The notes under the pieces were generated by a model. The model saw only the letters and a list, made by a program, of their open reading frames with translations. It made no database searches and was not told the DNA's origin. This document shows positions 21,160-36,863 of a DNA stretch of 51,563 nucleotides, one piece after another; the stretch's first letter is position 1, and every line of letters starts with the position of its first letter. Source of the DNA: a virus; UHGV virus genome UHGV-0189653; one strand, written 5' to 3'. Both the position numbers and the translations under genes were made by a program.

Positions 21160-21410
21160 ATGGCAAAAATGGGGCAAAGCGCTGCAAAAGGGGCAAAAAA
21201 GGGGCAAAAAAAGAGTGGGTTATCGTAGCTTATTGTTGTCGCTGATGATATTTAACACATTGAAAAATAAGTAAAATACTTATGAGTCAGAGAGTTGTGA
21301 TTTTTGCCCTTACTTGTTCAGGTTGTATTGTTCTTTCTTTGTAATTTGTTGATTTTCTTGCATTATTTCAGTTCTCTGGTACTAAATGGGGCAAATTGGG
21401 GGCAAACTTT
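21160..21410. other. attP: phage attachment site region (attP-like) with integrase arm-type repeats
   Basis: Direct repeats of (T/G)GGGCAAA at 21162-21210 (four to five copies), inverted copy TTTTGCCC at 21302-21309, two more direct copies at 21387-21407 abutting the int 3-prime end; core not delimited. Confidence 0.5.
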
Positions 21411-21414
21411 GCAA

Positions 21415-22650
21415 CTATGATAACCGCGCATTCAACATGGCTATCTGTTCGTCGTTCATGTCATCAATCCACATACCGTAAATTTCATACACCATCTGCG
21501 CAGTTTCATGCCCCATTTGGCTGGCTATAAATGCCGGGTTCGCTCCTGCCGTCAACAGCCAGCAGGCAAAAGTATGCCGCGTATGGTACGGATTACGGCG
21601 GCGAATACCAGCACGTTTTACTGCTGCATTCCACCTTGCCCCCAAACTGCTTACCGAGTAATAAGGTTTTTGTTTTCCGTTACACACCCTGGGCATGAAA
21701 ACAAAATGCAGTTTTTGCTTTTCGGTTCTGCCGTACTCCCGATGATAAAAGGTGATTTCGCTTTTGCGATGATGCCCGGTCAGTTTGTATTGCTCCTTCA
21801 GTGCTTCAAGAGCAGGCTGCAGTAGTGTTACTGTCCGGATCCCGGCATTTGTTTTTGGGGGACCGAACATATCAAGTATCGTCAGGTTTCTTCTGACATT
21901 CACTATTCCCTTTTCGAGATCCACATCCTCCCACGCCAGAGCTGCCAGTTCCCCGTGACGAAGTCCTGAGTAAACTGCAAATTTCCACATGTTCTGGCTC
22001 TGTCCTTTTTCACTTTCCATTAATGCATTGAATTCTGTTTTAGATAACGGATCAGGCTTTATTCTGTTTCGCTGTAATTTTTTTACTCCTTCAAATGGTT
22101 TGGTTGATATAAATCCCGACTGATACGCAAAACGTAACAGCGAACAGAGCAGGGCGATATAGTTATCAACTGTGCGCACGGTTCTTCCTTTTTTGTTGGA
22201 TCTTGGATTATCCAGGTAAAGCGTTTCTCCATGCAGCAGTTCATTCCGGTAGTTTAAGATATCGCTATAACGAATATGTGATATCAGGGTACTTTCACAA
22301 ATTATTATTCTGAGTGTTTTTAATTGTGATTTCGTTTTCTTCATTGTGTTTGTTGTTAACTCTGTCTCTTTAATTTTTGTCCAGATATCACAAAGCTCTC
22401 CGAACGTTTTTATGACTCTCGTTGTCACCATTTTTGCCCCAGTGCTGGACTGGGGAAAACGTCTTAAATACTCAAATTCACCGGAGTTTATTTCATGAAC
22501 TATCAGCGCTCTTAAATTTCCGGCCTTTTTAATATTACTGTTTGTAATCTCCCAGCCTTTTAATGTTTCCCGACATCGTTTTCCTCGAAACATGAACCAG
22601 ATGCGAATGTATCTACCTCTAATCTCGACACCTGTTGGTAATTTAGACAT
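21415..22650 (-). CDS. intR: tyrosine integrase (Rac IntR-like)
   Basis: 411-aa ORF, N-terminus MSKLPTGVEIRGRYIRIWFMFRGKRCRETL, C-terminal catalytic R..HxxR..Y region; adjacent to att repeats. Confidence 0.95.
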   Translation of the reverse strand: MSKLPTGVEIRGRYIRIWFMFRGKRCRETLKGWEITNSNIKKAGNLRALIVHEINSGEFEYLRRFPQSSTGAKMVTTRVIKTFGELCDIWTKIKETELTTNTMKKTKSQLKTLRIIICESTLISHIRYSDILNYRNELLHGETLYLDNPRSNKKGRTVRTVDNYIALLCSLLRFAYQSGFISTKPFEGVKKLQRNRIKPDPLSKTEFNALMESEKGQSQNMWKFAVYSGLRHGELAALAWEDVDLEKGIVNVRRNLTILDMFGPPKTNAGIRTVTLLQPALEALKEQYKLTGHHRKSEITFYHREYGRTEKQKLHFVFMPRVCNGKQKPYYSVSSLGARWNAAVKRAGIRRRNPYHTRHTFACWLLTAGANPAFIASQMGHETAQMVYEIYGMWIDDMNDEQIAMLNARLS

Positions 22651-22651
22651 A

Positions 22652-22867
22652 TCATGAGTCTTTGATAAACTGATTTATCTTTGGATAGTTGTACCAGATA
22701 ATCCCTCGTTTGCTGTCTGGCTTACCTAAAGGAGATACTCGTTTGAAGTGGAAGCCCTCCACCCAACAGTTCTGGCGGTATGCTTCAATTTGTCTGGCCC
22801 CCAGACCAGTGCGAAGCATCAGGCCGTATTCAACCATCCACTCTTCATTAAAGATTACTTGTGCCAT
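22652..22867 (-). CDS. ydaQ: excisionase-like protein (YdaQ/Xis)
   Basis: 71-aa product [16 protein letters not shown]... immediately upstream of int. Confidence 0.75.
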
Positions 22868-22966
22868 CGCATCACCTCTGGCAGGCGCCAATGTTAGACT
22901 GAAATTGACGCCCGATGTTGATTATTAATAATCAGCTATGAAGTTTTAATTTGAATACAATGCAAT

Positions 22967-23155
22967 TCACGAGGACTGAAGTTTCTCGCAATTAAAATTT
23001 ATCAGTTTTACTTTCTGCTCTCTGGAAACGCCTGCTTCTTTTTTACCTGAGAGCATTTTTTCGCATTCTGATTTCGTTAGTTTAGATTTTGAATATCTTG
23101 TCCAGTTAGTAGGAGTGCCACCTTCCTTTTCAATAGTGGCGGTAATTTTATACAT
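22967..23155 (-). CDS. ydaC: YdaC-like protein, function unknown
   Basis: Start MYKITATIEKEGG overlaps the lar stop (translational coupling); Rac order. Confidence 0.55.
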   Translation of the reverse strand: MYKITATIEKEGGTPTNWTRYSKSKLTKSECEKMLSGKKEAGVSREQKVKLINFNCEKLQSS

Positions 23156-23342
23156 GAACACCTCCGTTATTATTTCCAGTGGTTCGTTTATTCCATCTTT
23201 CGAGTGCTTCTTTTTCACTTCCACCATAACCGGTTCGGGATTCGCATCCGTTACACTTCGCTCGGTAATATCCTGAAATGACTTTCACCGTTACTGATGG
23301 ACAACCACAAAATGGACATGGTTTAACATTGTCATATCTCAT
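23148..23342 (-). CDS. ralR: restriction alleviation protein Lar (RalR, type I TA toxin DNase)
   Basis: 64-aa product MRYDNVKPCPFCGCPSVTVKVISGYYRAKCNGCESRTGYGG... with CxxC...CxxC zinc ribbon. Confidence 0.85.
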   Translation of the reverse strand: MRYDNVKPCPFCGCPSVTVKVISGYYRAKCNGCESRTGYGGSEKEALERWNKRTTGNNNGGVHV

Positions 23343-23398
23343 AATTTTTCTCATAAAAAATATTTCAAGTTGGCGGTGCATTACACCGCCAGGCTGAA

Positions 23399-24208
23399 TT
23401 ATTCCTCTGAATTATCGATTACACTGTATTCCCCGGTTAATACAGAGGAATCTGCAGGATCGATTGTCAGTGGTTCCTTTTCATCCATTGATACTGCACG
23501 CTGGATCTCAATTGATACGGGCAGATATTTGAACAGGCGACGAATAGCCGTTTTCTTTGCCATTTCTTCCCAGTGAGTTACCCACGGCCCGTTATTACCA
23601 GCTTTACTCAGGCTGCGCACCAGCTCAATCTGTTTGCGCGTCATAACTTCAAACTGAGTACCTCCGTCTTTCAGTCTTGCGACAGCATAGACGTGGGTAA
23701 CCGGGGCATCTTCGTTTTCTCCCGGGCGGTGTATTAACTTTTCATCAAGGCCAAATTCGAAGCTAAACTCGTCACCTTCACGGACAACACGGGCTGACAG
23801 GCTGGCGATTTGACCAGAACGGCGAGCCAGATCAATCATGCCGCGATAGCCAATGATTAGCTGAACGTTCTTTTTACCGCTCTTTTCGTTTTTATTACCA
23901 AAAGGCAGTAAATATGCATGACCGAGGGCGCTACCTGGCTCAAGTCCGAGCTGTGAACACTGTACGATCGCACTGACAAAACTCATAGTGTCACAGTTTC
24001 CTAACGCCGGAACTTTACGAATTTCTGTGGTGGCGATACGGATCATACGTTCAACCGTCATATGGCGTGGAAGAGCTGCTGCCAGTTGCTCTTTCATTGA
24101 TGGCTGGTTAATAAAACTAATCACGTCGCTATTTTTAACTGCTGCTGGTGCACGGTTTCCCTGAGTTTTTTGCAGATCGGCTTTTGCGATTGGTGGTTGC
24201 TTAGTCAT
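23399..24208 (-). CDS. recT: recombinase RecT (single-strand annealing protein)
   Basis: 269-aa product starting [16 protein letters not shown]; start overlaps recE stop. Confidence 0.95.
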
Positions 24209-26801
24209 TTGCATATTCCTTAGCCCAGCGGGGCAGTGATAATGTCTTAATAGCTGGCCATTCATCGGTATTCAGGCTGTCAGACAGGGTTCGCAGATTG
24301 CGGTGATATTCCTGTTGACCTGCCAGTTTTGCTTCTTCGCCCATCATGAAAATTTCAACCGGATAACGTCCGCATTCAATAGTTGTGCTGGCAACCAGAA
24401 AAACGAAAGTTGGCTGCACTCCAAACTGTGCTTCATAACCGTCACTGTAGAATGCATCCTGAACGTGATAGCGGTAGTCGTAATAAGCGGTTTTGAATCG
24501 TTGAATATCCGCCGTAGTTTTCACGTCCATGATCCAGTGAAATTCAGGGATAATTTTGTCCGGACGGCACCGACACAAAATTCCTGTTTCAGGATCTTCC
24601 CAGTAAATTGATGATTCAGCGTGTCCGGCGCTTTCAACAAGCCATTGCCCCAGCGGCAAAGCCATAACGCTTTGATACATGAGTTCAATTTTCCGGCCTT
24701 CTTCCGCAGTGATAACCGTTTTTCCTGTGCTTGCGCATTCCATCAGAAACGCTTTCTCTTCTTCTTTTCCGGCGTTTGTACGGCGGTTAAATTCAGGTGC
24801 TACGATAAAGCGGTTACTGAATTCTTCCGGTTCAAGTACCCGGCAGTGGAAAGCAGTTCCTAAATCGAGCGTTTTTGTCTTTGTGGTGTCCACGGGGGCA
24901 TTTTTACGCCACAAATATAGTGCCGGAGTATCAGCAATGTCATCGAGCTGAGACTTACTGATACCGGGACCCGCGTGGTAATTCTCATTCGAAATTCCGT
25001 AATAAATACCTGGCTCTATGTCTTCTACGATTACGGGATCTGCGACTTCGCCAGTTTCATCACTGCAATCGCGATGCGGATCGCTGCCAGCATTCTCATT
25101 GTGCGGATGTTCAGCGCCTTCCATTTCCTCCGGATCATTTTCCTTAGCTTCAACCTGACTCTCTTCATCGAATGTTTCCTGGTATGTTGCGTCGCCCATC
25201 ACCGCACCACAGTCAGGGCAGTTATCCCCGCCAGTCTGGCCGCAGGCATTGCAGGCTATTTCCGGTTCCTGTTGCACTACTGGCTCAGGTTGATTCATAT
25301 CCGGGCTGGTTTTTTCCGTTTCTGGCTGGTTCTGGTACACACAATCGCGAGTCTGGATCCCCTTTACCCATTTCGGATCGTTCGGGTCGCTAATTCCGTC
25401 AACAAATTCACCACGTGATGCAGCAAGCAATTTATCGGCATCGACAGGATTTTTTGATGGAATGTTTTTCCGGGCTTCATGGAGTTCTGCCCGCAGTTCC
25501 TGATATTTCGCATCAACAGAATTTACCTGTGACTGAGCATCCAGCGGCTGCGTGTCCTGATGATGTTCAGTTGCGTCCGGTTCCATTGTTTCAGCCTCTC
25601 CCTGTTCAACTGCCGTTGTTCCAGATGGTTGCGGTTTTTCTTCATCATCCTGTTTTCCTTCTTCTGTTACTCGCTGCGGCATCGGGGCAGAGGAGCGACC
25701 GCAGGCAATATCCACGATTTCCGGATCAGGGTTGGCATGATCGGTTTCAGTCAGTACTTTGTTCAGATATTCAGTGACGTGCGCGGGGATGACCTCGATC
25801 CCAATTGGTGCTTCTTTTACGGACGCAACCACGATGGCGCGGGAATAATCCAGCCCGCCAGGCATGGTGATGAATTTGTCGCGGAAAACAGAAAAGGGCG
25901 GTTTATTTTCAGCGATAATTTCCTCAATGCGTTTAGCGTGTGCCGGATGAAGGTTATAGATGTCCAGATCCATTGAACGGGCCAGTACGCCAGTGGCTAC
26001 GTCGCGCGCCAGTGACGTCAGATCGTGTACGAAACCTTCGCCGCGATCGGTGAGGTTTCCGCCGCCAGCATTAGCACCGGAAGCCGTGCGAGTGATGTGT
26101 GAAACACGATTACCCTTCATCCACTCTTTTGTCAGCAGTCCTCGATCGGTGTAGTCAGCGTTCAGGTATGCTTCGAAAAAAGCAGTTATCAGTCCCAGGT
26201 TTGAATTACCAGGATTAGGGAAAACTTTGTCAGTGTCACGAACCAGTTTGTGGAGTTCGCGAATTTCCAGCGGGTCGAGCAGGCTGGTTTTGTGGGAAAC
26301 AGCCAGGGCAGTAACAGCCGGTAGTTCTTCAGCCCGAGCAATGTGTAATGCCTGGAGTCCGTCGCGTGAAACGTGCGTTACCGGTTTTTCGCTGCCGTGT
26401 TGAGCAAGCCAACGAATGGGCAGTTCCTGGCCAGAAATTGGGAGTAGCATATTCTCCTCAATCTCAGTCATGTCTTCGCCGTTGACGTTGGTATTGCCTT
26501 GATAGTGAGCGTTGTCTGGTGCTGCTCCCGGTTTTAGTTCCCATGTCATGGAGTCTTTGCTGAGTTGATAGCGTTCACTCCAGGTAAAATCGATCTCACC
26601 TTCAGCGGGCAGGTCATTAACGACAGGAAAATTCGTGGCAACAGCTTTAAAATAGCTGCTCAGTTTTTTACCTGACTTAACGATCAGGTAGTCCAGAGTG
26701 GCACAGGTCGATTCAAAATCGTTGCTTGCCCACAGGACGACGTCAGGTTCACCGGATGATTTTTTCGCTTTCCGTAACAGGAAGAGTGGTTTTGTGCTCA
26801 T
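24201..26801 (-). CDS. recE: exodeoxyribonuclease VIII RecE
   Basis: 866-aa [35 protein letters not shown]..., C-terminal nuclease domain. Confidence 0.95.
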
Positions 26802-26902
26802 TGTTTTTTAACCTCAACTCAGATTAAAATTCGTTTTGTTCAGTGAATGATCTTGCCGGATACACACTGTTCATAGCCTGCGCCATACGCAGGCTATTTC
26901 TT

Positions 26903-27178
26903 TCAGATTTCACCTTTTAATTTCATTGCAATTAGAGTTGCCAGAAATTCGGCTTTTTTTTCTGCGGGCAGATTCTTTCCGATATGCACCAGGCACATTT
27001 TTTTGACACCTTCATCAAGTGTTTTTACGTTGCCTGATGGACCATCGATATCAACCACAGTGAATGGGGTTTCTTTATTTTCTGTTTTAATTACGTAGCC
27101 AATGCGCTTTCCTTCCAGATTCACCTCGTGAACAATGTCATCGGTAGTTACAACAGTGGCTTCATAATTGGTAATCAT
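26903..27178 (-). CDS. racC: RacC protein
   Basis: 91-aa product MITNYEATVVTTDDIVHEVNLEGKRIGYVIK... Confidence 0.8.
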   Translation of the reverse strand: MITNYEATVVTTDDIVHEVNLEGKRIGYVIKTENKETPFTVVDIDGPSGNVKTLDEGVKKMCLVHIGKNLPAEKKAEFLATLIAMKLKGEI

Positions 27179-27252
27179 GTTTTTCTCCTTAATTAAGGTT
27201 GAGCGAATACCTGCCATTTCTGGCATAAATTCAGTTTCGAATAGTCAATTAA

Positions 27253-27423
27253 TTAAAGTTCATGTGCCATCTGGTCTTTTTCGGCACAAGATTCACTGCA
27301 ATATTTTCTCGGTTCGTCTTTTGATAAAATCCCGTGCATGAAGTGAAGCATTCTTTCAATAGCTTTGCTTTCTTCAACGTCTTTTTTGCAAAGGTGGTAA
27401 GCACATTTTATTTTCTTAGTCAT
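27253..27423 (-). CDS. ydaE: YdaE, small Cys-rich metal-binding protein
   Basis: 56-aa ORF found by manual translation ([56 protein letters not shown]); below the ORF-track size cut-off. Confidence 0.65.
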   Translation of the reverse strand: MTKKIKCAYHLCKKDVEESKAIERMLHFMHGILSKDEPRKYCSESCAEKDQMAHEL

Positions 27424-27644
27424 CACCATGACTCCGCCTTTACAGGTAAACCATCACGACCGAGGAAGACTTTAATCATGCGGTCAGTAATGCATGTTTT
27501 TGTGGTCAGGTTACGAATATATAGTTTTCGCTTTTTAATATTGTTTGCCGAGGCAATATATGTCCGGCCTTCATGAAGAACATAATCGCCAGGAGTCACA
27601 CACTGACGTGGTATTTCATCAGTTCCGAAGTGATGTGCAATCAT
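27423..27644 (-). CDS. kilR: KilR, FtsZ-targeting cell division inhibitor
   Basis: 73-aa product [38 protein letters not shown]...; stop overlaps ydaE start. Confidence 0.85.
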
Positions 27645-28085
27645 AATTATCTCCATTTTTACAAATGAACTTTGTTGATGCGGTGCCTGGTGCCTCCAGG
27701 TGACTGCAACCAGTTAACAATTACAGTCGGCTTTCCCACCCAAACCAATAAGGACTAACATGACTTTTAACTGTGCCACGTGCGCTTAGCCGCATTCACC
27801 GCATCACAAAATTCACTTTAAAAAGGGCGGACATCAGCCGAACTTCAAGAAAAAAAATGATGCCGCCAGGACTACACACAGCAATGTCGTTATTTACAAC
27901 CGGAGGCGCACTCCCACCATTTAAATTTAACAGACAAGACCGACTCTTTATGGATATCGGAAATGCGCCTTCGTGTTGTGCCCGGTTTTATTTCACCACC
28001 TCCGGGCTTCGGTGGTCTCGGCTATACCCCTACAGCGAGAGCTTGTGTTAACATTTCAATACCCTTACAGTTGAGAGTTATTGAT

Positions 28086-28574
28086 ATGTTGGATGTATTT
28101 ACTCCATTGTTGAAACTTTTTGCTAACGAGCCACTCGAAAGACTTATGTATACGATTATCATTTTTGGTCTCACTCTCTGGCTGATACCGAAAGAGTTTA
28201 CTGTCGCATTCAATGCTTATACTGAAATACCTTGGCTCTTTCAGATTATCGTTTTTGCCTTTTCTTTCGTGGTCGCCATTTCCTTCTCAAGATTGCGAGC
28301 ACATATTCAAAAGCATTATTCATTACTACCAGAGCAACGAGTATTGCTTCGTTTATCTGAGAAAGAAATCGCTGTATTTAAAGATTTCCTTAAAACAGGA
28401 AATCTTATTATCACTTCTCCTTGCCGTAACCCGGTTATGAAAAAATTAGAACGGAAGGGCATCATTCAACATCAGAGTGATAGCGCAAACTGTTCTTATT
28501 ATCTCGTCACCGAAAAATACTCCCATTTTATGAAGTTATTCTGGAACAGCAGGAGTAGACGTTTTAATCGTTAG
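28086..28574 (+). CDS. sieB: superinfection exclusion protein SieB
   Basis: 162-aa membrane protein starting MLDVFTPLLKLFANEPLE with two hydrophobic segments; plus strand opposite the early-left operon. Confidence 0.8.
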   Translation: MLDVFTPLLKLFANEPLERLMYTIIIFGLTLWLIPKEFTVAFNAYTEIPWLFQIIVFAFSFVVAISFSRLRAHIQKHYSLLPEQRVLLRLSEKEIAVFKDFLKTGNLIITSPCRNPVMKKLERKGIIQHQSDSANCSYYLVTEKYSHFMKLFWNSRSRRFNR

Positions 28575-28726
28575 CTTACTGTGTGCTTCTCCAACCATCG
28601 GCGCGCACCAGTTTCGGTTTTAAATGTTTTGCTTTTGGTATACGTCATGGCAGTGAACGTTCCATCCTGGTTGGGGAACACGCCGCACACCAGGGATTCG
28701 TTGTTGCCGAGGTTGATTTTTTGCAT
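28571..28726 (-). CDS. ydaF: YdaF small protein
   Basis: 51-aa ORF by manual translation (MQKINLGNNESLVCGVFPNQDGTFTAMTYTKSKTFKTETGARRWLEKHTVS); convergent 4-nt overlap with sieB. Confidence 0.6.
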   Translation of the reverse strand: MQKINLGNNESLVCGVFPNQDGTFTAMTYTKSKTFKTETGARRWLEKHTVS

Positions 28727-28736
28727 TTTGCGAATC

Positions 28737-28871
28737 TCACATCTTGTTGCTACGTATAGCGACTTCTGCCTGCCAGAGATCCCAGTCGTTGCTGCGTAAA
28801 GCCTGCACAGCCTGGTTGTAAGTGATACCGCAACAATCCATCAAATACTGAACTACTTCGTAATGCACCAT
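28737..28871 (-). CDS. ydaG: YdaG small protein
   Basis: 44-aa ORF by manual translation (MVHYEVVQYLMDCCGITYNQAVQALRSNDWDLWQAEVAIRSNKM); first gene downstream of predicted pL. Confidence 0.6.
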   Translation of the reverse strand: MVHYEVVQYLMDCCGITYNQAVQALRSNDWDLWQAEVAIRSNKM

Positions 28872-29040
28872 CTTATCTCTCCCCTTAACGCCGGGTGGCG
28901 GAACTAACTGCTGCACTGCAAAATTTGAATCCCGCCGTCATGTTCATACGCCTCGGGCTGGCTACTTAACCCCTTACCACTGCCTGGTAACTCGAAGTAT
29001 TGCCCGGCGTTCTGTGGGGCGGGGTGGGTGGTATGCTGGA

Positions 29041-30075: not shown

Positions 30076-30097
30076 AACATCAAGAGGCAAATGATTC

Positions 30098-30520
30098 ATG
30101 AAAATCAAGCATGAGCACATCGAATCAGTGTTGTTTGCCCTAGCAGCCGAAAAAGGGCAGGCATGGGTAGCCAATGCAATTACTGAAGAATATCTGCGCC
30201 AGGGGGGCGGCGAATTGCCCCTGGTTCCAGGCAAGGACTGGAACAATCAGCAGAATATCTATCACCGTTGGTTGAAAGGTGAAACGAAAACGCAAAGAGA
30301 AAAAATTCAGAAGCTGATCCCAGCAATTCTGGCAATCCTTCCGCGCGAGCTGCGTCACCGACTCTGCATCTTCGATACCCTGGAACGCCGTGCATTACTG
30401 GCGGCGCAGGAAGCGTTAAGTACGGCAATTGATGCGCATGATGATGCAGTCCAAGCCGTTTACCGGAAAGCGCATTTCAGCGGCGGCGGTTCTTCCGACG
30501 ATTCTGTCATTGTTCATTAA
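30098..30520 (+). CDS. ydaT: YdaT (CII-like regulator, toxic when derepressed)
   Basis: 140-aa ORF MKIKHEHIESVLFALAAEKGQAWVANAITEEY...; follows ydaS. Confidence 0.8.
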   Translation: MKIKHEHIESVLFALAAEKGQAWVANAITEEYLRQGGGELPLVPGKDWNNQQNIYHRWLKGETKTQREKIQKLIPAILAILPRELRHRLCIFDTLERRALLAAQEALSTAIDAHDDAVQAVYRKAHFSGGGSSDDSVIVH

Positions 30521-34924: not shown

Positions 34925-35446
34925 TGAAAATTCCTCAAGTTGGAGAGTTCTGGAACATTAAGGCGAGGTGGCAGTAATGCACCATCTGTAATCTTTTGAT
35001 ACTGACGTAATCGGGCCTGATGTGCAACGCCTTGCAAGTATGTAACTCATTGAAAACGATCATTTTTATCTATTGACATCAAATGGCAAACTGTCATTGT
35101 GCGGCTATGGCAAGTGGCAAATGCTTATAAATCATATGGATATAAATAGTACAGAAAGAGTTGTTTTCTCTAGGATATGAGTATACGCCCAATGCTGATT
35201 GGTTGAATTTTGTTCTTGTTTTAAAGGGTAAGAGTTTAAAGTGTTGGCAGTGATGTATTGGATAGTTAGAATTGCTGTGGGTGCTTGAGGCTATCTGCCT
35301 CGGGCATGAACACCAAAGGTAGATAGAGAAAAGCCCCAGTTAACATTACGCGTCCTGCAAGACGTTTAACATTAATCTGAGGCCATATCTATGCGACACA
35401 TAGAGATTAGCCTCTTACGGACCGAAAGGTCAAGGAGAAGCAGGCT

Positions 35447-35572
35447 ATGAAGCAGCAAAAGGCGATGTTAATCGCCCTGATCGTCATCTGTTTAACCGTC
35501 ATAGTGACGGCACTGGTAACGAGGAAAGACCTCTGCGAGGTACGAATCCGAACTGGCAGACGGAGGCTCTGA
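35447..35572 (+). CDS. hok: Hok-family type I toxin (HokD/RelF-like), C-terminally altered
   Basis: ORF MKQQKAMLIALIVICLTVIVTALVTRKDLCEVRIRTG then RRRL*; leader 35270-35446 carries hok-mRNA-like elements (GCTTGAGGCTATCTGCCTC; TTAGCCTCTTAC...AAGGAGAAG) and a short mok-like ORF ending at the hok ATG. Confidence 0.6.
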   Translation: MKQQKAMLIALIVICLTVIVTALVTRKDLCEVRIRTGRRRL

Positions 35573-35654
35573 TTCGTAGACTACTAATCTGAGTAAAAGA
35601 CCCAGCGGGGAAAGAACCACGCCGGGACTAGTTAATAAGATATTTATAGCGTGG

Positions 35655-35996
35655 CTATTCTTTTTTTGCGGTATAGACTTTTTCGCCTGAGAAGTCTGGA
35701 GCTACCCAAAAGTTAATATTAAACTGAGCATCATCGCTTAGTTCAACACGGTGCCAGTATTGTGGTGGGCTTGTTGCAAAAGCGCCAGCATTAATGACTA
35801 CTTTTATCTCCGGTTCAGTAGCATTCTCATCAGCAAAACCATAATATGTTACAGTACCTTCCATCACGCATAACTGTCCAAAAACACCTGCTGCTGTATT
35901 ATGATGTGTTAATAACGCTGAAGGTACGTTCTCTTTTGTGAAGAACGGAGTTGAGCGTTTGATTACCCAGTCTTTAGGAATTCTCTTGTGTGTCAT
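35655..35996 (-). CDS. YeaR-like DUF1971 protein (TehB N-domain-like)
   Basis: 113-aa product from ATG at 35996 with RBS GGGAGG; sequence resembles YeaR as I recall it. Confidence 0.65.
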   Translation of the reverse strand: MTHKRIPKDWVIKRSTPFFTKENVPSALLTHHNTAAGVFGQLCVMEGTVTYYGFADENATEPEIKVVINAGAFATSPPQYWHRVELSDDAQFNINFWVAPDFSGEKVYTAKKE

Positions 35997-36009
35997 AACC
36001 ACCTCCCAT

Positions 36010-36034
36010 AAAACATGCATTATAAATGCACCTT
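36010..36034 (-). promoter_or_regulatory. NsrR-like operator overlapping the promoter of the yeaR-like gene
   Basis: Minus-strand GGTGCATTTATAATGCATGTT: inverted repeat of the ATGCAT core resembling my recollection of the NsrR consensus; contains TATAAT; TTGACA 21 nt upstream. Confidence 0.45.
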
Positions 36035-36863
36035 TTTGAGGGTTATGTCAAGCTGTTATGAAACACATAATTGATATGTTGATTAGAGGAGAAGATAGAA
36101 TCAATATGGTTGTTTTTCGTATAACTATTTGTTTTACTTTTAGTTTGTGCATTCTGTGTGTTAGGAATAACTTATTAAAGTTTAACTAAAAAATCTCGAT
36201 ATAGTCCGCATAGATTACTGTTACTGAATCTTATTGTGTGCATTAGTTGTGTTCTGAAATTTCAATTTAATTACTTATGATATATTTTTAACGATAAATG
36301 TTTTCCGGGTGAAAGACAGTGGGGGATGAGATAAGCAATATATCATTAATCTTGATTATTTCCAGGATGCCTTTACTGTGTATATAAATAAATCATATAC
36401 GCATCAAATAATGTAAAGGCATCCTTTTAGATATATCTTATCAAATGTTAATGATTTGAGTGGGAAACATGATTCCAGAAACTAATCATGCGGCTACTTT
36501 ATAAAAATAATGCCCATATAAAACAGCCAGCGAAAAGGATTACGGATAAAAAAGGAGCGAGATGTGCATAGTTGTTATTTTCCATGTTTAACCACCTTAA
36601 ATAATTGATGATGACGGGATGTGCATCTGTAATGCTTTTGTTGAAATGTTATGATAAAAAAGAACTTTTTCATAACATTAAAATGTAATTTATCTAATCG
36701 TTTTTAATAATAAGTGTTGTATTTCTATCCTTGTATCAGCTATTTGATATGTAGTGTTTGTTCATGTTATGTGGAGCTTTACACCATAGCCAGTTTATTT
36801 ATACTTTATTCGTCAGCCTGAACAACTGGCATCTGCTGCACTGCGCCATCGAGAGATTGAGAA

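What the first reader, a model, noticed from the sequence alone, without database searches (positions are those of the whole stretch)
35230..35572. hok/mok-type type I toxin locus with a truncated Hok C-terminus
The leader has hok-mRNA-like elements and a short mok-like ORF ending at the hok ATG. The Hok reading frame matches HokD for 37 residues and then ends as ...RTGRRRL*; inserting one nucleotide after the Gly codon would restore a roughly 48-aa Hok-like tail. It may be a decaying toxin gene or a functional variant lacking the periplasmic tail; the antisense Sok partner should lie in the leader on the minus strand.
Basis: partly seen in the sequence, partly recalled or inferred. Interest (0 to 1): 0.55.

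Follow-up and report, generated by a model that had tools for sequence, protein, structure and literature searches.

The report
Decayed hok/sok toxin locus in prophage
This is a real hok/sok-type toxin-antitoxin locus in a Rac-like prophage, but its toxin gene has lost its conserved tail and its mRNA has lost a key 3' control element, so it is most likely a worn-out copy of a well-known system.

Summary
At 35244-35572 there is a sigma-70-like promoter, a hok-mRNA leader (Rfam RF01794, 101.5 bits), a 19-codon mok-like ORF whose TGA overlaps the hok ATG, and a 41-aa Hok ORF. The ORF is identical to HokD for 37 residues and then reads RRRL*. A Sok-like antisense RNA with its own promoter is predicted on the minus strand (35397->35329).

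New here:
- The truncation is not one lesion. After codon 37, identity to intact hokD/hokW loci drops from 97-98% to about 60%. There is a 1-nt deletion, a net 2-nt deletion, a GAA->TAA nonsense change and a 3-nt deletion.
- Homology ends near 35617, so the fbi element that pairs with the mRNA 5' end in every intact relative is absent. The 3' stem-loop is weakened.
- A natural 48-aa allele (...QTEALIRRLLI) with the same decayed 3' end exists. The 41-aa form derives from it by loss of one C.

The 41-aa protein is already in RefSeq (WP_001445775.1, "Hok/Gef family protein"). The decayed 3' junction occurs in 104 of 5,426 complete E. coli genomes, and the exact protein in at least 1,000 contigs. 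The best reading is a degenerate, probably non-toxic hok with an apparently intact Sok. Toxicity and transcription were not tested. Interest is low.

The parts
35244..35272 (+). hok/mok mRNA promoter, TTGGCA-17 nt-TAGAAT; transcript start expected at about 35277-35279
   Evidence: The consensus scan scores 10 of 12. The -10 TAGAAT is conserved in all full-length relatives.
35277..35290 (+). tac-like 5' element (GTGGGTGCTTGAGG). In intact relatives it pairs with the 3' fbi element.
   Evidence: In 4 intact relatives the MFE fold pairs the first 14 nt with the last 14 nt of the full-length mRNA. Duplex energies are -26 to -32.5 kcal/mol.
35279..35449 (+). hok mRNA leader, containing the tac/ucb stem, the Sok-target hairpin, the mok region and the hok Shine-Dalgarno sequence
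   Evidence: Rfam RF01794 matches at 101.5 bits, E 6e-23, over the full model. Identity to intact hokD-type loci is 96-97%.
35391..35450 (+). mok-like leader ORF of 19 codons; its TGA stop overlaps the hok ATG (ATGA), and a GAGG Shine-Dalgarno lies 8 nt upstream
   Evidence: Found. The sequence is identical in the intact hokD-type loci L002 and L004.
35329..35397 (-). predicted Sok antisense RNA (69 nt): single-stranded 5' tail, long hairpin and U-tail
   Evidence: Mapped from the sokW misc_RNA annotated in 933W. The fold is -25.8 kcal/mol. Expression was not tested.
35404..35433 (-). predicted Sok promoter, TTGACC (35433-35428)-18 nt-TAATCT (35409-35404)
   Evidence: Read from the sequence. 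It is identical to the intact hokD-type loci. Its -10 corresponds to the element mutated in the sokW promoter-less construct, as inferred from the primers in PMC8621323. It falls below the threshold of the consensus scanner.
35447..35572 (+). truncated hok ORF, 41 aa (RefSeq WP_001445775.1); residues 1-37 equal HokD, then RRRL*
35554..35558 (+). frameshift site: ACT GGC-AGA here against ACC GGC CAG in intact hokD; one C of the CC run is lost
   Evidence: L013 carries the intermediate ACT GGC CAG.
35558..35596 (+). decayed remainder of the ancestral hok coding region: net 2-nt deletion plus substitutions, GAA->TAA at 35585-35587, a 3-nt deletion, and the ancestral TAA stop at 35594-35596
   Evidence: Alignment and frame translations. 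Identity here is 55-71% against 96-98% upstream.
35597..35629 (+). remnant of the 3' stem-loop that caps the processed hok mRNA in intact loci; here it is interrupted and weaker
   Evidence: -13.0 kcal/mol here against -14.6 to -23.1 in relatives.
35617..35660 (.). junction. Homology to hok loci ends near 35617 and homology to hok-less DUF1971 modules starts at 35661. The fbi element and the native terminator are missing. A T-run lies at 35661-35667.

Best explanation
[quoted passage not shown] It lies in the early (nin-like) region of a Rac-type lambdoid prophage, between a KilA-N gene and a DUF1971 gene.

What is retained: the 5' two-thirds, comprising the hok promoter, tac element, leader structure, 19-codon mok ORF, Sok promoter, Sok RNA, hok ribosome-binding site and codons 1-37. 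This part is essentially identical to functional relatives. Exchange with other hokD copies probably keeps it so.

What is lost: the 3' third has decayed. The Hok tail went first, giving the 48-aa allele ...QTEALIRRLLI. Loss of one further C then gave the 41-aa ...RTGRRRL. The 3' stem-loop is weakened, and the fbi element and native terminator were replaced at a junction with the DUF1971 module.

Inferred consequences:
1. The mRNA cannot form the closed 5'-3' (tac-fbi) structure that makes full-length hok mRNA a stable, inert reservoir. Any transcript should therefore fold directly into the open, Sok-sensitive form, and no post-segregational reservoir would exist.
2. The peptide keeps the transmembrane helix and Cys30. 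It lacks the conserved periplasmic tail (QTEVAVFTAYEPEE), including the Tyr47 TAC-G codon that TadA recodes to the second cysteine. The net charge of the C-terminal flank changes from -2 to +5. The peptide is therefore most likely non-toxic or strongly attenuated.
3. Sok is probably still made.

Shown here: sequence anatomy, homology, the lesions, the absence of fbi, and the order of the alleles. Inferred only: transcription, loss of toxicity and loss of function.
For: - Family identity: Rfam leader hit at 101.5 bits; Pfam HOK_GEF at 59.1 bits, covering only positions 1-34 of 42.
- Sharp identity break at codon 37/38, from 96-98% to 55-71%, with deletions of 1, 2 and 3 nt and a nonsense change.
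- Loss of fbi: all four intact relatives fold with the first 14 nt paired to the last 14 nt, with duplexes of -26 to -32.5 kcal/mol. The window has only -12.9 before the T-run. A -23.9 match inside the DUF1971 coding sequence is at chance level, being reached by 13% of random 160-nt windows. It is equally present in DUF1971 copies that have no hok.
- 3' stem-loop: -13.0 against -14.6 to -23.1 kcal/mol. In plasmid R1, breaking this stem removes the processed mRNA and the toxicity (PMC9841398).
- C-terminus needed for toxicity in relatives: R1 Hok M46I, Y48N, a C-terminal FLAG tag and stop-codon read-through all abolish toxicity (PMC9841398). Replacing the Gef/HokC C-terminus with PhoA gives a non-toxic protein (cited in PMC8509063). 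TadA Tyr-to-Cys recoding at codon 46 of hokC/D/E and an essential C29-C46 disulfide in HokB are described in bioRxiv 10.1101/2025.08.07.668861.
- Allele order: L012 differs from the window across 35230-35700 only by T35554C and one extra C. L013 is the intermediate.
- Further decay: IMG/VR contig L019 lacks 35371-35462.
- Sok promoter and RNA region: the promoter is identical to intact loci and the Sok RNA region differs by one base.
- No intact progenitor of the 3' part was found in E. coli genomes, plasmids or phages.
Against: - Toxicity of the 41-aa peptide was not tested. Many type I toxins are little more than a transmembrane helix, so a helix-only Hok could still harm membranes.
- Alanine changes at single conserved Hok residues, including E41 and E49, do not abolish R1 Hok toxicity. 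The tail requirement is therefore not residue-specific.
- Codons 1-37, the ribosome-binding site and both promoters are perfectly preserved.
- The 41-aa allele is widespread (at least 1,000 contigs), occurs in different prophage contexts and is carried by sequenced phage genomes. This is compatible with retention under selection as well as with hitch-hiking.
- The MFE fold of a transcript extended to 35715 does pair the 5' end with 35694-35708.
Confidence: 0.75

Rival explanations
1. The locus is a functional short toxin. The 41-aa peptide (transmembrane helix plus a basic tail) is still membrane-active and still controlled by Sok. The locus would then work as a simplified hok/sok module, for example assisting lysis on prophage induction as hokW-sokW does.
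For: - The promoter, leader, mok ORF, hok Shine-Dalgarno and ATG, codons 1-37 and Sok are all intact.
- The allele is common and mobile among prophages.
- The HokC transmembrane region contributes to toxicity (PMC8509063).
- hokW-sokW aids phage release (PMC8621323).
Against: - Toxicity in R1 Hok and Gef depends on the C-terminus.
- The second cysteine (editing) site is lost.
- The C-terminal flank becomes +5, which runs against export of that end (the positive-inside rule is established knowledge).
- Several lesions lie downstream of the first stop, and the fbi element is absent. Both fit relaxed constraint.
- A copy with a 92-nt deletion exists.
Confidence: 0.13
2. The locus is a toxin-dead module kept as a Sok donor. 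The prophage would retain the leader and Sok promoter because Sok neutralises hokD-type mRNAs from other prophages or plasmids in the same cell, acting as an anti-addiction or cross-immunity function.
For: - The Sok promoter is identical to that of intact hokD-type loci, and the Sok RNA region differs from them by one base.
- The 5' part stays at 96-98% identity while the 3' part decays.
- Genomes that carry the locus have a median of 2 and up to 9 hok-like places.
Against: - The high identity of the 5' part is equally explained by recombination with other hokD copies. L011 and L013 carry different leader or promoter variants on the same decayed 3' end.
- One copy has lost the Sok promoter.
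- No expression or cross-protection data exist.
- The 5' tail of Sok differs from the hokW target.
Confidence: 0.1
3. The frameshift is a sequencing or assembly artefact in a run of C/G, and the real gene is intact hokD.
For: The final lesion is a 1-nt loss in a short GGCC run.
Against: - An identical sequence occurs in 104 complete genomes from many laboratories and platforms, in 3 phage records and in 7 IMG/VR contigs.
- Restoring the base still gives a non-Hok tail, and the other lesions and the missing fbi remain.
Confidence: 0.01

Closest known systems
hokD (relF) of E. coli, in its full-locus form in lambdoid prophages (for example strains DA61218 and B1.H1.39; RefSeq WP_000813254.1)
   Same: - The Hok N-terminal 37 residues are identical.
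- The leader, the 19-codon mok ORF, the Sok promoter and the Sok region are 96-98% identical.
- Both lie in the early region of a prophage.
   Different: - The intact loci encode 51 aa ending QTEVAVFTAYEPEE.
- They have a strong 3' stem-loop.
- They carry an fbi element that pairs with the 5' end, followed by a terminator.
- All of these are decayed or absent in the window.
- The K-12 copy has the opposite defect: an intact ORF and 3' end, but no leader or Sok, because relBE lies upstream.
[quoted passage not shown]
   Same: - It is a prophage-borne hok/sok locus.
- The leader is about 90% identical.
- What remains of the window's tail (TTCGTAGACTAC) is the hokW-type codon string FVDY.
- Its Sok annotation was used to place Sok in the window.
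   Different: - HokW is 51 aa and toxic.
- Its mok frame is fused in frame with hok because of a 1-nt difference.
- The target of the Sok 5' tail differs.
- Its fbi element is present.
hok/sok (parB) of plasmid R1, the reference system
   Same: - The architecture is the same: promoter, tac, ucb, mok with 19 codons before the hok start, antisense Sok and a Hok/Gef peptide.
   Different: - In R1, mok continues into hok, whereas here it stops at the hok ATG.
- R1 has tac-fbi end pairing and a protective 3' stem, both needed for regulated killing.
- The window lacks fbi and the Hok tail.
Inactivated chromosomal hok loci of E. coli K-12, and the 'degenerated' Hok sequences filtered out of the 2026 Hok survey
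   Same: - Decayed hok copies are common. The survey removed coding sequences shorter than 40 aa (5.1% of unique sequences) or with internal stops (2.6%) as degenerate (bioRxiv 10.1101/2025.08.07.668861).
- The protein collection holds many HokD variants whose C-termini have been replaced.
   Different: - This allele is 41 aa, just above the survey's length cut-off.
- RefSeq annotates it as a normal protein, not as a pseudogene.
- No paper in the searched library mentions it.

Membership tests
[quoted passage not shown] | The toxin ORF matches the Hok/Gef peptide family (Pfam PF01848) | tested here: met
   E 3.2e-16 and 59.1 bits against a cut-off of 22. Only profile positions 1-34 of 42 are covered.
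[quoted passage not shown] | Complete Hok peptide (about 50 aa) with the conserved periplasmic tail (E41 and Y/C48 of the family logo) | tested here: not met
   The ORF ends at residue 41 with RRRL. The tail codons are frameshifted, carry a nonsense change and contain deletions. Logo positions are from bioRxiv 10.1101/2025.08.07.668861.
[quoted passage not shown] | Structured hok mRNA leader (tac/ucb stem and Sok-target hairpin) | tested here: met
   Rfam RF01794 matches at 101.5 bits against a gathering score of 59, over the full model. The hit is on the hok-mRNA strand, so it marks the leader or Sok-target region rather than the direction of Sok.
[quoted passage not shown] | mok leader ORF translationally coupled to hok | tested here: met
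   A 19-codon ORF at 35391-35450 with a GAGG Shine-Dalgarno; its TGA overlaps the hok ATG. The layout is the same in intact hokD-type loci. It differs from R1, where mok runs into hok. Coupling itself was not tested.
[quoted passage not shown] | cis-encoded antisense Sok RNA with its own promoter and terminator hairpin | tested here: met
   Homology to the annotated sokW; a 69-nt RNA at 35397->35329 with tail, hairpin and U-run; promoter TTGACC-18 nt-TAATCT identical to intact loci. Transcription cannot be tested with these tools.
[quoted passage not shown] | 5'-3' end pairing (tac-fbi) that keeps the full-length mRNA inert | tested here: not met
   It is present in 4 of 4 intact relatives. 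It is absent in the window: -12.9 kcal/mol before the T-run, and the only longer match is at chance level and not specific to hok-linked copies.
[quoted passage not shown] | Stable 3' stem-loop that protects the processed, active mRNA | tested here: inconclusive
   An interrupted hairpin remains, at -13.0 kcal/mol against -14.6 to -23.1 in relatives. Its importance in R1 comes from PMC9841398.
[quoted passage not shown] | The peptide kills or depolarises the cell when Sok is absent | not testable with these tools
   Only indirect literature evidence that the C-terminus is required in R1 Hok and Gef.
HokD (NCBIfam Hok subfamily NF007279) | Score above the curated cut-off | tested here: inconclusive
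   34.8 bits against a cut-off of 73. Genuine 51-aa HokD also scores below it (48.5), so the test does not discriminate.

The most novel reading that the evidence does not exclude
The toxin-dead locus is not junk but a retained function. One possibility is that it acts as a Sok 'antidote donor' that protects the lysogen or phage from hokD-type killing by co-resident or incoming elements. The other is that the 41-aa peptide, a transmembrane helix with a strongly basic tail, has acquired a new, milder membrane role such as tuning lysis timing.
Probability: 0.12. Interest if true: 0.45.

Novelty: already known. Interest (0 to 1): 0.15.

Why it matters
The practical value lies in annotation. RefSeq names this 41-aa product a plain "Hok/Gef family protein", and at 41 aa it sits just above the 40-aa filter of the latest Hok survey. 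It can therefore be counted as an active toxin when it most likely is not.

It is also a clean natural example of how a hok locus decays from the 3' end. The tail, the 3' stem and the fbi element are lost, while the 5' part, including Sok, stays nearly identical to functional copies.

If the peptide or the orphan Sok turned out to be functional, the locus would be a handy natural truncation for two questions. One is which part of Hok kills. The other is whether type I antitoxins give cross-immunity between prophages.

Tried and rejected
1. A replacement fbi. RNAduplex and the MFE fold found a pairing of -23.9 kcal/mol between the 5' end and 35684-35709, inside the DUF1971 coding sequence. I rejected it because 13% of random 160-nt windows do as well. 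The same complementarity (-23.5) also exists in DUF1971 copies that have no hok next to them.
2. An intact progenitor of the 3' segment. None was found in 5,426 E. coli genomes, plasmids, phages or the GTDB species representatives (no exact match). The nearest match is hokW at 83% over about 55-70 nt.
3. A hok remnant next to hok-less DUF1971 modules. There is none; homology starts at 35661.
4. An intrinsic terminator for hok. The scanner finds none. Only a weak ATAGC/GCTAT hairpin followed by a T7 run is present (z -0.6).
5. Positions of the premature-stop suppressors in R1 Hok. The supplement of PMC9841398 is not held.
6. Contigs for the 37-aa 'partial HokD' (P0123).
7. A literature search for the accession or the tail motif returned no papers.
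8. My first assumption that the window equals strain 7/2 was wrong for the left part. Only 21314-29033, 30092-30518 and 31133 onward match.

Full report
**Observation.** The ORF at 35447..35572 (+) encodes MKQQKAMLIALIVICLTVIVTALVTRKDLCEVRIRTGRRRL, 41 aa. Residues 1-37 are identical to K-12 HokD, and codons 1-37 differ from K-12 hokD by one synonymous base. Pfam HOK_GEF matches at E 3.2e-16 but covers only profile positions 1-34 of 42, whereas 51-aa HokD covers 1-42. The leader at 35279-35449 matches Rfam RF01794 over the full model at 101.5 bits, E 6e-23, and it is the only such hit in the window. That hit lies on the hok-mRNA strand and ends at the hok AUG, so it marks the leader and Sok-target region. 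A sigma-70-like promoter, TTGGCA-17-TAGAAT, lies at 35244-35272. A 19-codon mok-like ORF at 35391-35450 ends with a TGA that overlaps the hok ATG.

**Context.** The locus sits in a Rac-type lambdoid prophage. Going from left to right the prophage carries intR, xisR, ralR, recET, kilR and sieB, then replication genes, a KilA-N gene, hok, a DUF1971 gene, DUF1367/DUF1364/DUF1133 genes, holin and lysis genes, trkG and terminase. This comes from the annotation of an identical segment in E. coli strain 7/2. Only window 21314-29033, 30092-30518 and 31133 onward match that strain. RefSeq already annotates the ORF as WP_001445775.1, "Hok/Gef family protein".

**Comparison with relatives.** I aligned the window with four intact full-length hokD-type or hokW loci, with phage Rac-SA53 hok, and with K-12 hokD.
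- Up to codon 37, identity is 96-98% to the hokD-type loci. After codon 37 it falls abruptly to 55-71%.
- The lesions are:
  - loss of one C at 35557/35558 (ACC GGC CAG in relatives, ACT GGC AGA here);
  - a net 2-nt deletion with substitutions in GGTCGCTGTC;
  - GAA->TAA at 35585-35587 in the ancestral frame;
  - a 3-nt deletion before the ancestral stop at 35594-35596;
  - a 2-nt deletion in the 3' stem-loop.
- What can still be read of the old tail (F V D Y) is of the hokW type.
- Homology to hok loci stops near 35617. Homology to DUF1971 modules that have no hok begins at 35661.

**mRNA 3' control elements.** In the R1 reference system, full-length hok mRNA is kept inert by pairing of its 5' tac element with the 3' fbi element. 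Slow 3' processing then releases the translatable, Sok-binding form, and a terminal stem-loop protects that form (PMC9841398).
- In all four intact relatives, the MFE fold of the full-length RNA pairs the first 14 nt with the last 14 nt. The tac-to-3'UTR duplexes are -26 to -32.5 kcal/mol.
- The window has no such partner: -12.9 kcal/mol before the T-run at 35661-35667.
- A -23.9 match at 35684-35709 is at chance level. It is equally present in hok-less DUF1971 genes, so I do not count it as a replacement fbi.
- The 3' stem-loop is interrupted, at -13.0 against -14.6 to -23.1 kcal/mol.

**Sok.** The sokW RNA annotated in 933W maps through the alignment to a 69-nt RNA on the minus strand, 35397->35329. 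It has a single-stranded 5' tail, a long hairpin and a U-tail (-25.8 kcal/mol). Upstream lies TTGACC-18 nt-TAATCT (35433-35404). This promoter is identical to that of the intact hokD-type loci. Its -10 corresponds to the element mutated in the sokW promoter-less construct, as inferred from the primers. The antitoxin side therefore looks intact, although expression is untested.

**Distribution and allele history.**
- The decayed 3' junction is present, at 99% identity or more, in 104 of 5,426 complete E. coli genomes. The next-best matches are hokW at 83%.
- It is also in three sequenced Escherichia phage records and in 7 IMG/VR contigs.
- It is absent from the GTDB species-representative genomes.
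- The exact 41-aa protein is recorded on at least 1,000 contigs.
- It occurs with different upstream neighbours (KilA-N, a YobI-type NTPase, others), so the hok-DUF1971 unit moves between prophages.
- A rare 48-aa allele...RTGQTEALIRRLLI (P0002, 3 contigs), sits in the same context.
  - L012 differs from the window across 35230-35700 only by T35554C plus one extra C.
  - L013 has ACT GGC CAG, the direct intermediate.
  - The tail had therefore already decayed before the last C was lost.
  - The 48-aa tail is not Hok-like; Pfam stops at profile position 35 of 42.
- L011 and L013 carry different leader or promoter variants on the same 3' end. This shows recombination of the 5' part with other hokD copies, and it explains the sharp identity boundary.
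- One viral contig (L019) has a further 92-nt deletion (35371-35462) that removes the mok start, the Sok promoter and the hok start.

**Is the peptide still toxic?** This was not tested here.
- Evidence that it is not:
  - R1 Hok loses toxicity with M46I, Y48N, a C-terminal FLAG tag or stop-codon read-through.
  - Replacing the Gef/HokC C-terminus with PhoA gives a non-toxic protein.
  - The TAC-G Tyr codon near the C-terminus of hokC/D/E is recoded to Cys by TadA, and the corresponding C29-C46 disulfide is essential in HokB. In the window that codon lies beyond the stop and is followed by TAA.
  - The net charge of the C-terminal flank changes from -2 to +5. By the positive-inside rule (established knowledge), this should hinder export of that end.
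- Evidence that it could be: single alanine changes of conserved residues do not kill R1 Hok toxicity, the transmembrane region matters in HokC, and many type I toxins are helix-only.

**Verdict.** This is a genuine but degenerate hok/sok locus. Its 5' regulatory half and its Sok look intact. Its toxin tail, 3' stem and fbi element are decayed or lost.
- My confidence that it belongs to the hok/sok lineage is about 0.98.
- My confidence that it no longer works as a regulated killer module is about 0.75.
- Residual possibilities are a still-active short toxin (about 0.13) or a retained Sok-donor role (about 0.10).

The kind is well known, and decayed hok loci are common. The protein already has a RefSeq accession, although no paper in the searched library mentions this allele. 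Interest is low. The main value is as a caution for annotation and as a natural truncation allele.

Noticed in passing
window 22971-23381: The same prophage carries a second type I toxin-antitoxin pair. RalA sRNA lies at 22971-23149 (+) (Rfam RF02694, 225 bits). Next to it is a RalR/Lar-like ORF at 23148-23381 (-).
   Followed up: partly
window 1-21313: The left 21 kb does not match strain 7/2. Window 14000-21356 matches E. coli genomes at only about 95% identity and carries sitABCD next to tail-fibre genes of another prophage. The host may be a divergent Escherichia lineage, or the prophages may lie in tandem.
   Followed up: partly
window 36021-36863: An 840-nt stretch between the DUF1971 and DUF1367 genes has only 31% G+C (the window as a whole is 48%). 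It has no annotated gene in the matching RefSeq record.
   Followed up: no
proteins P0001, P0003, P0009, P0018, P0113, P0123: Many other HokD variants in the protein collection keep residues 1-36/37 and then have unrelated C-termini. An exactly 37-aa 'partial HokD' is recorded on 637 contigs. Codon 37/38 may be a recurrent breakpoint for deletion or recombination. P0003 looks like a deletion that fuses Q38 to the fbi/terminator region.
   Followed up: partly
L019 (IMGVR_UViG_3300007747_000074), equivalent to window 35371-35462: This copy of the same locus has a 92-nt deletion that removes the mok start, the Sok promoter, the Sok 5' end and the hok Shine-Dalgarno and ATG.
   Followed up: yes
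window 35655-36020 (-): A DUF1971/TehB-like gene converges on hok. About 350 other E. coli genomes carry it at about 95.5% identity with no hok beside it. Its coding sequence contains the T-run that is the only terminator-like feature downstream of hok.
   Followed up: partly
L005 (933W) and L006 (Rac-SA53) compared with window 35420-35430: A 1-nt difference (GAAAGG-CAAGG against GAAAGGTCAAGG) puts mok in frame with hok in the hokW-type loci, which are annotated as 70-71-aa Mok/Hok fusions. In the hokD-type loci, including the window, mok stops at the hok ATG.
   Followed up: partly
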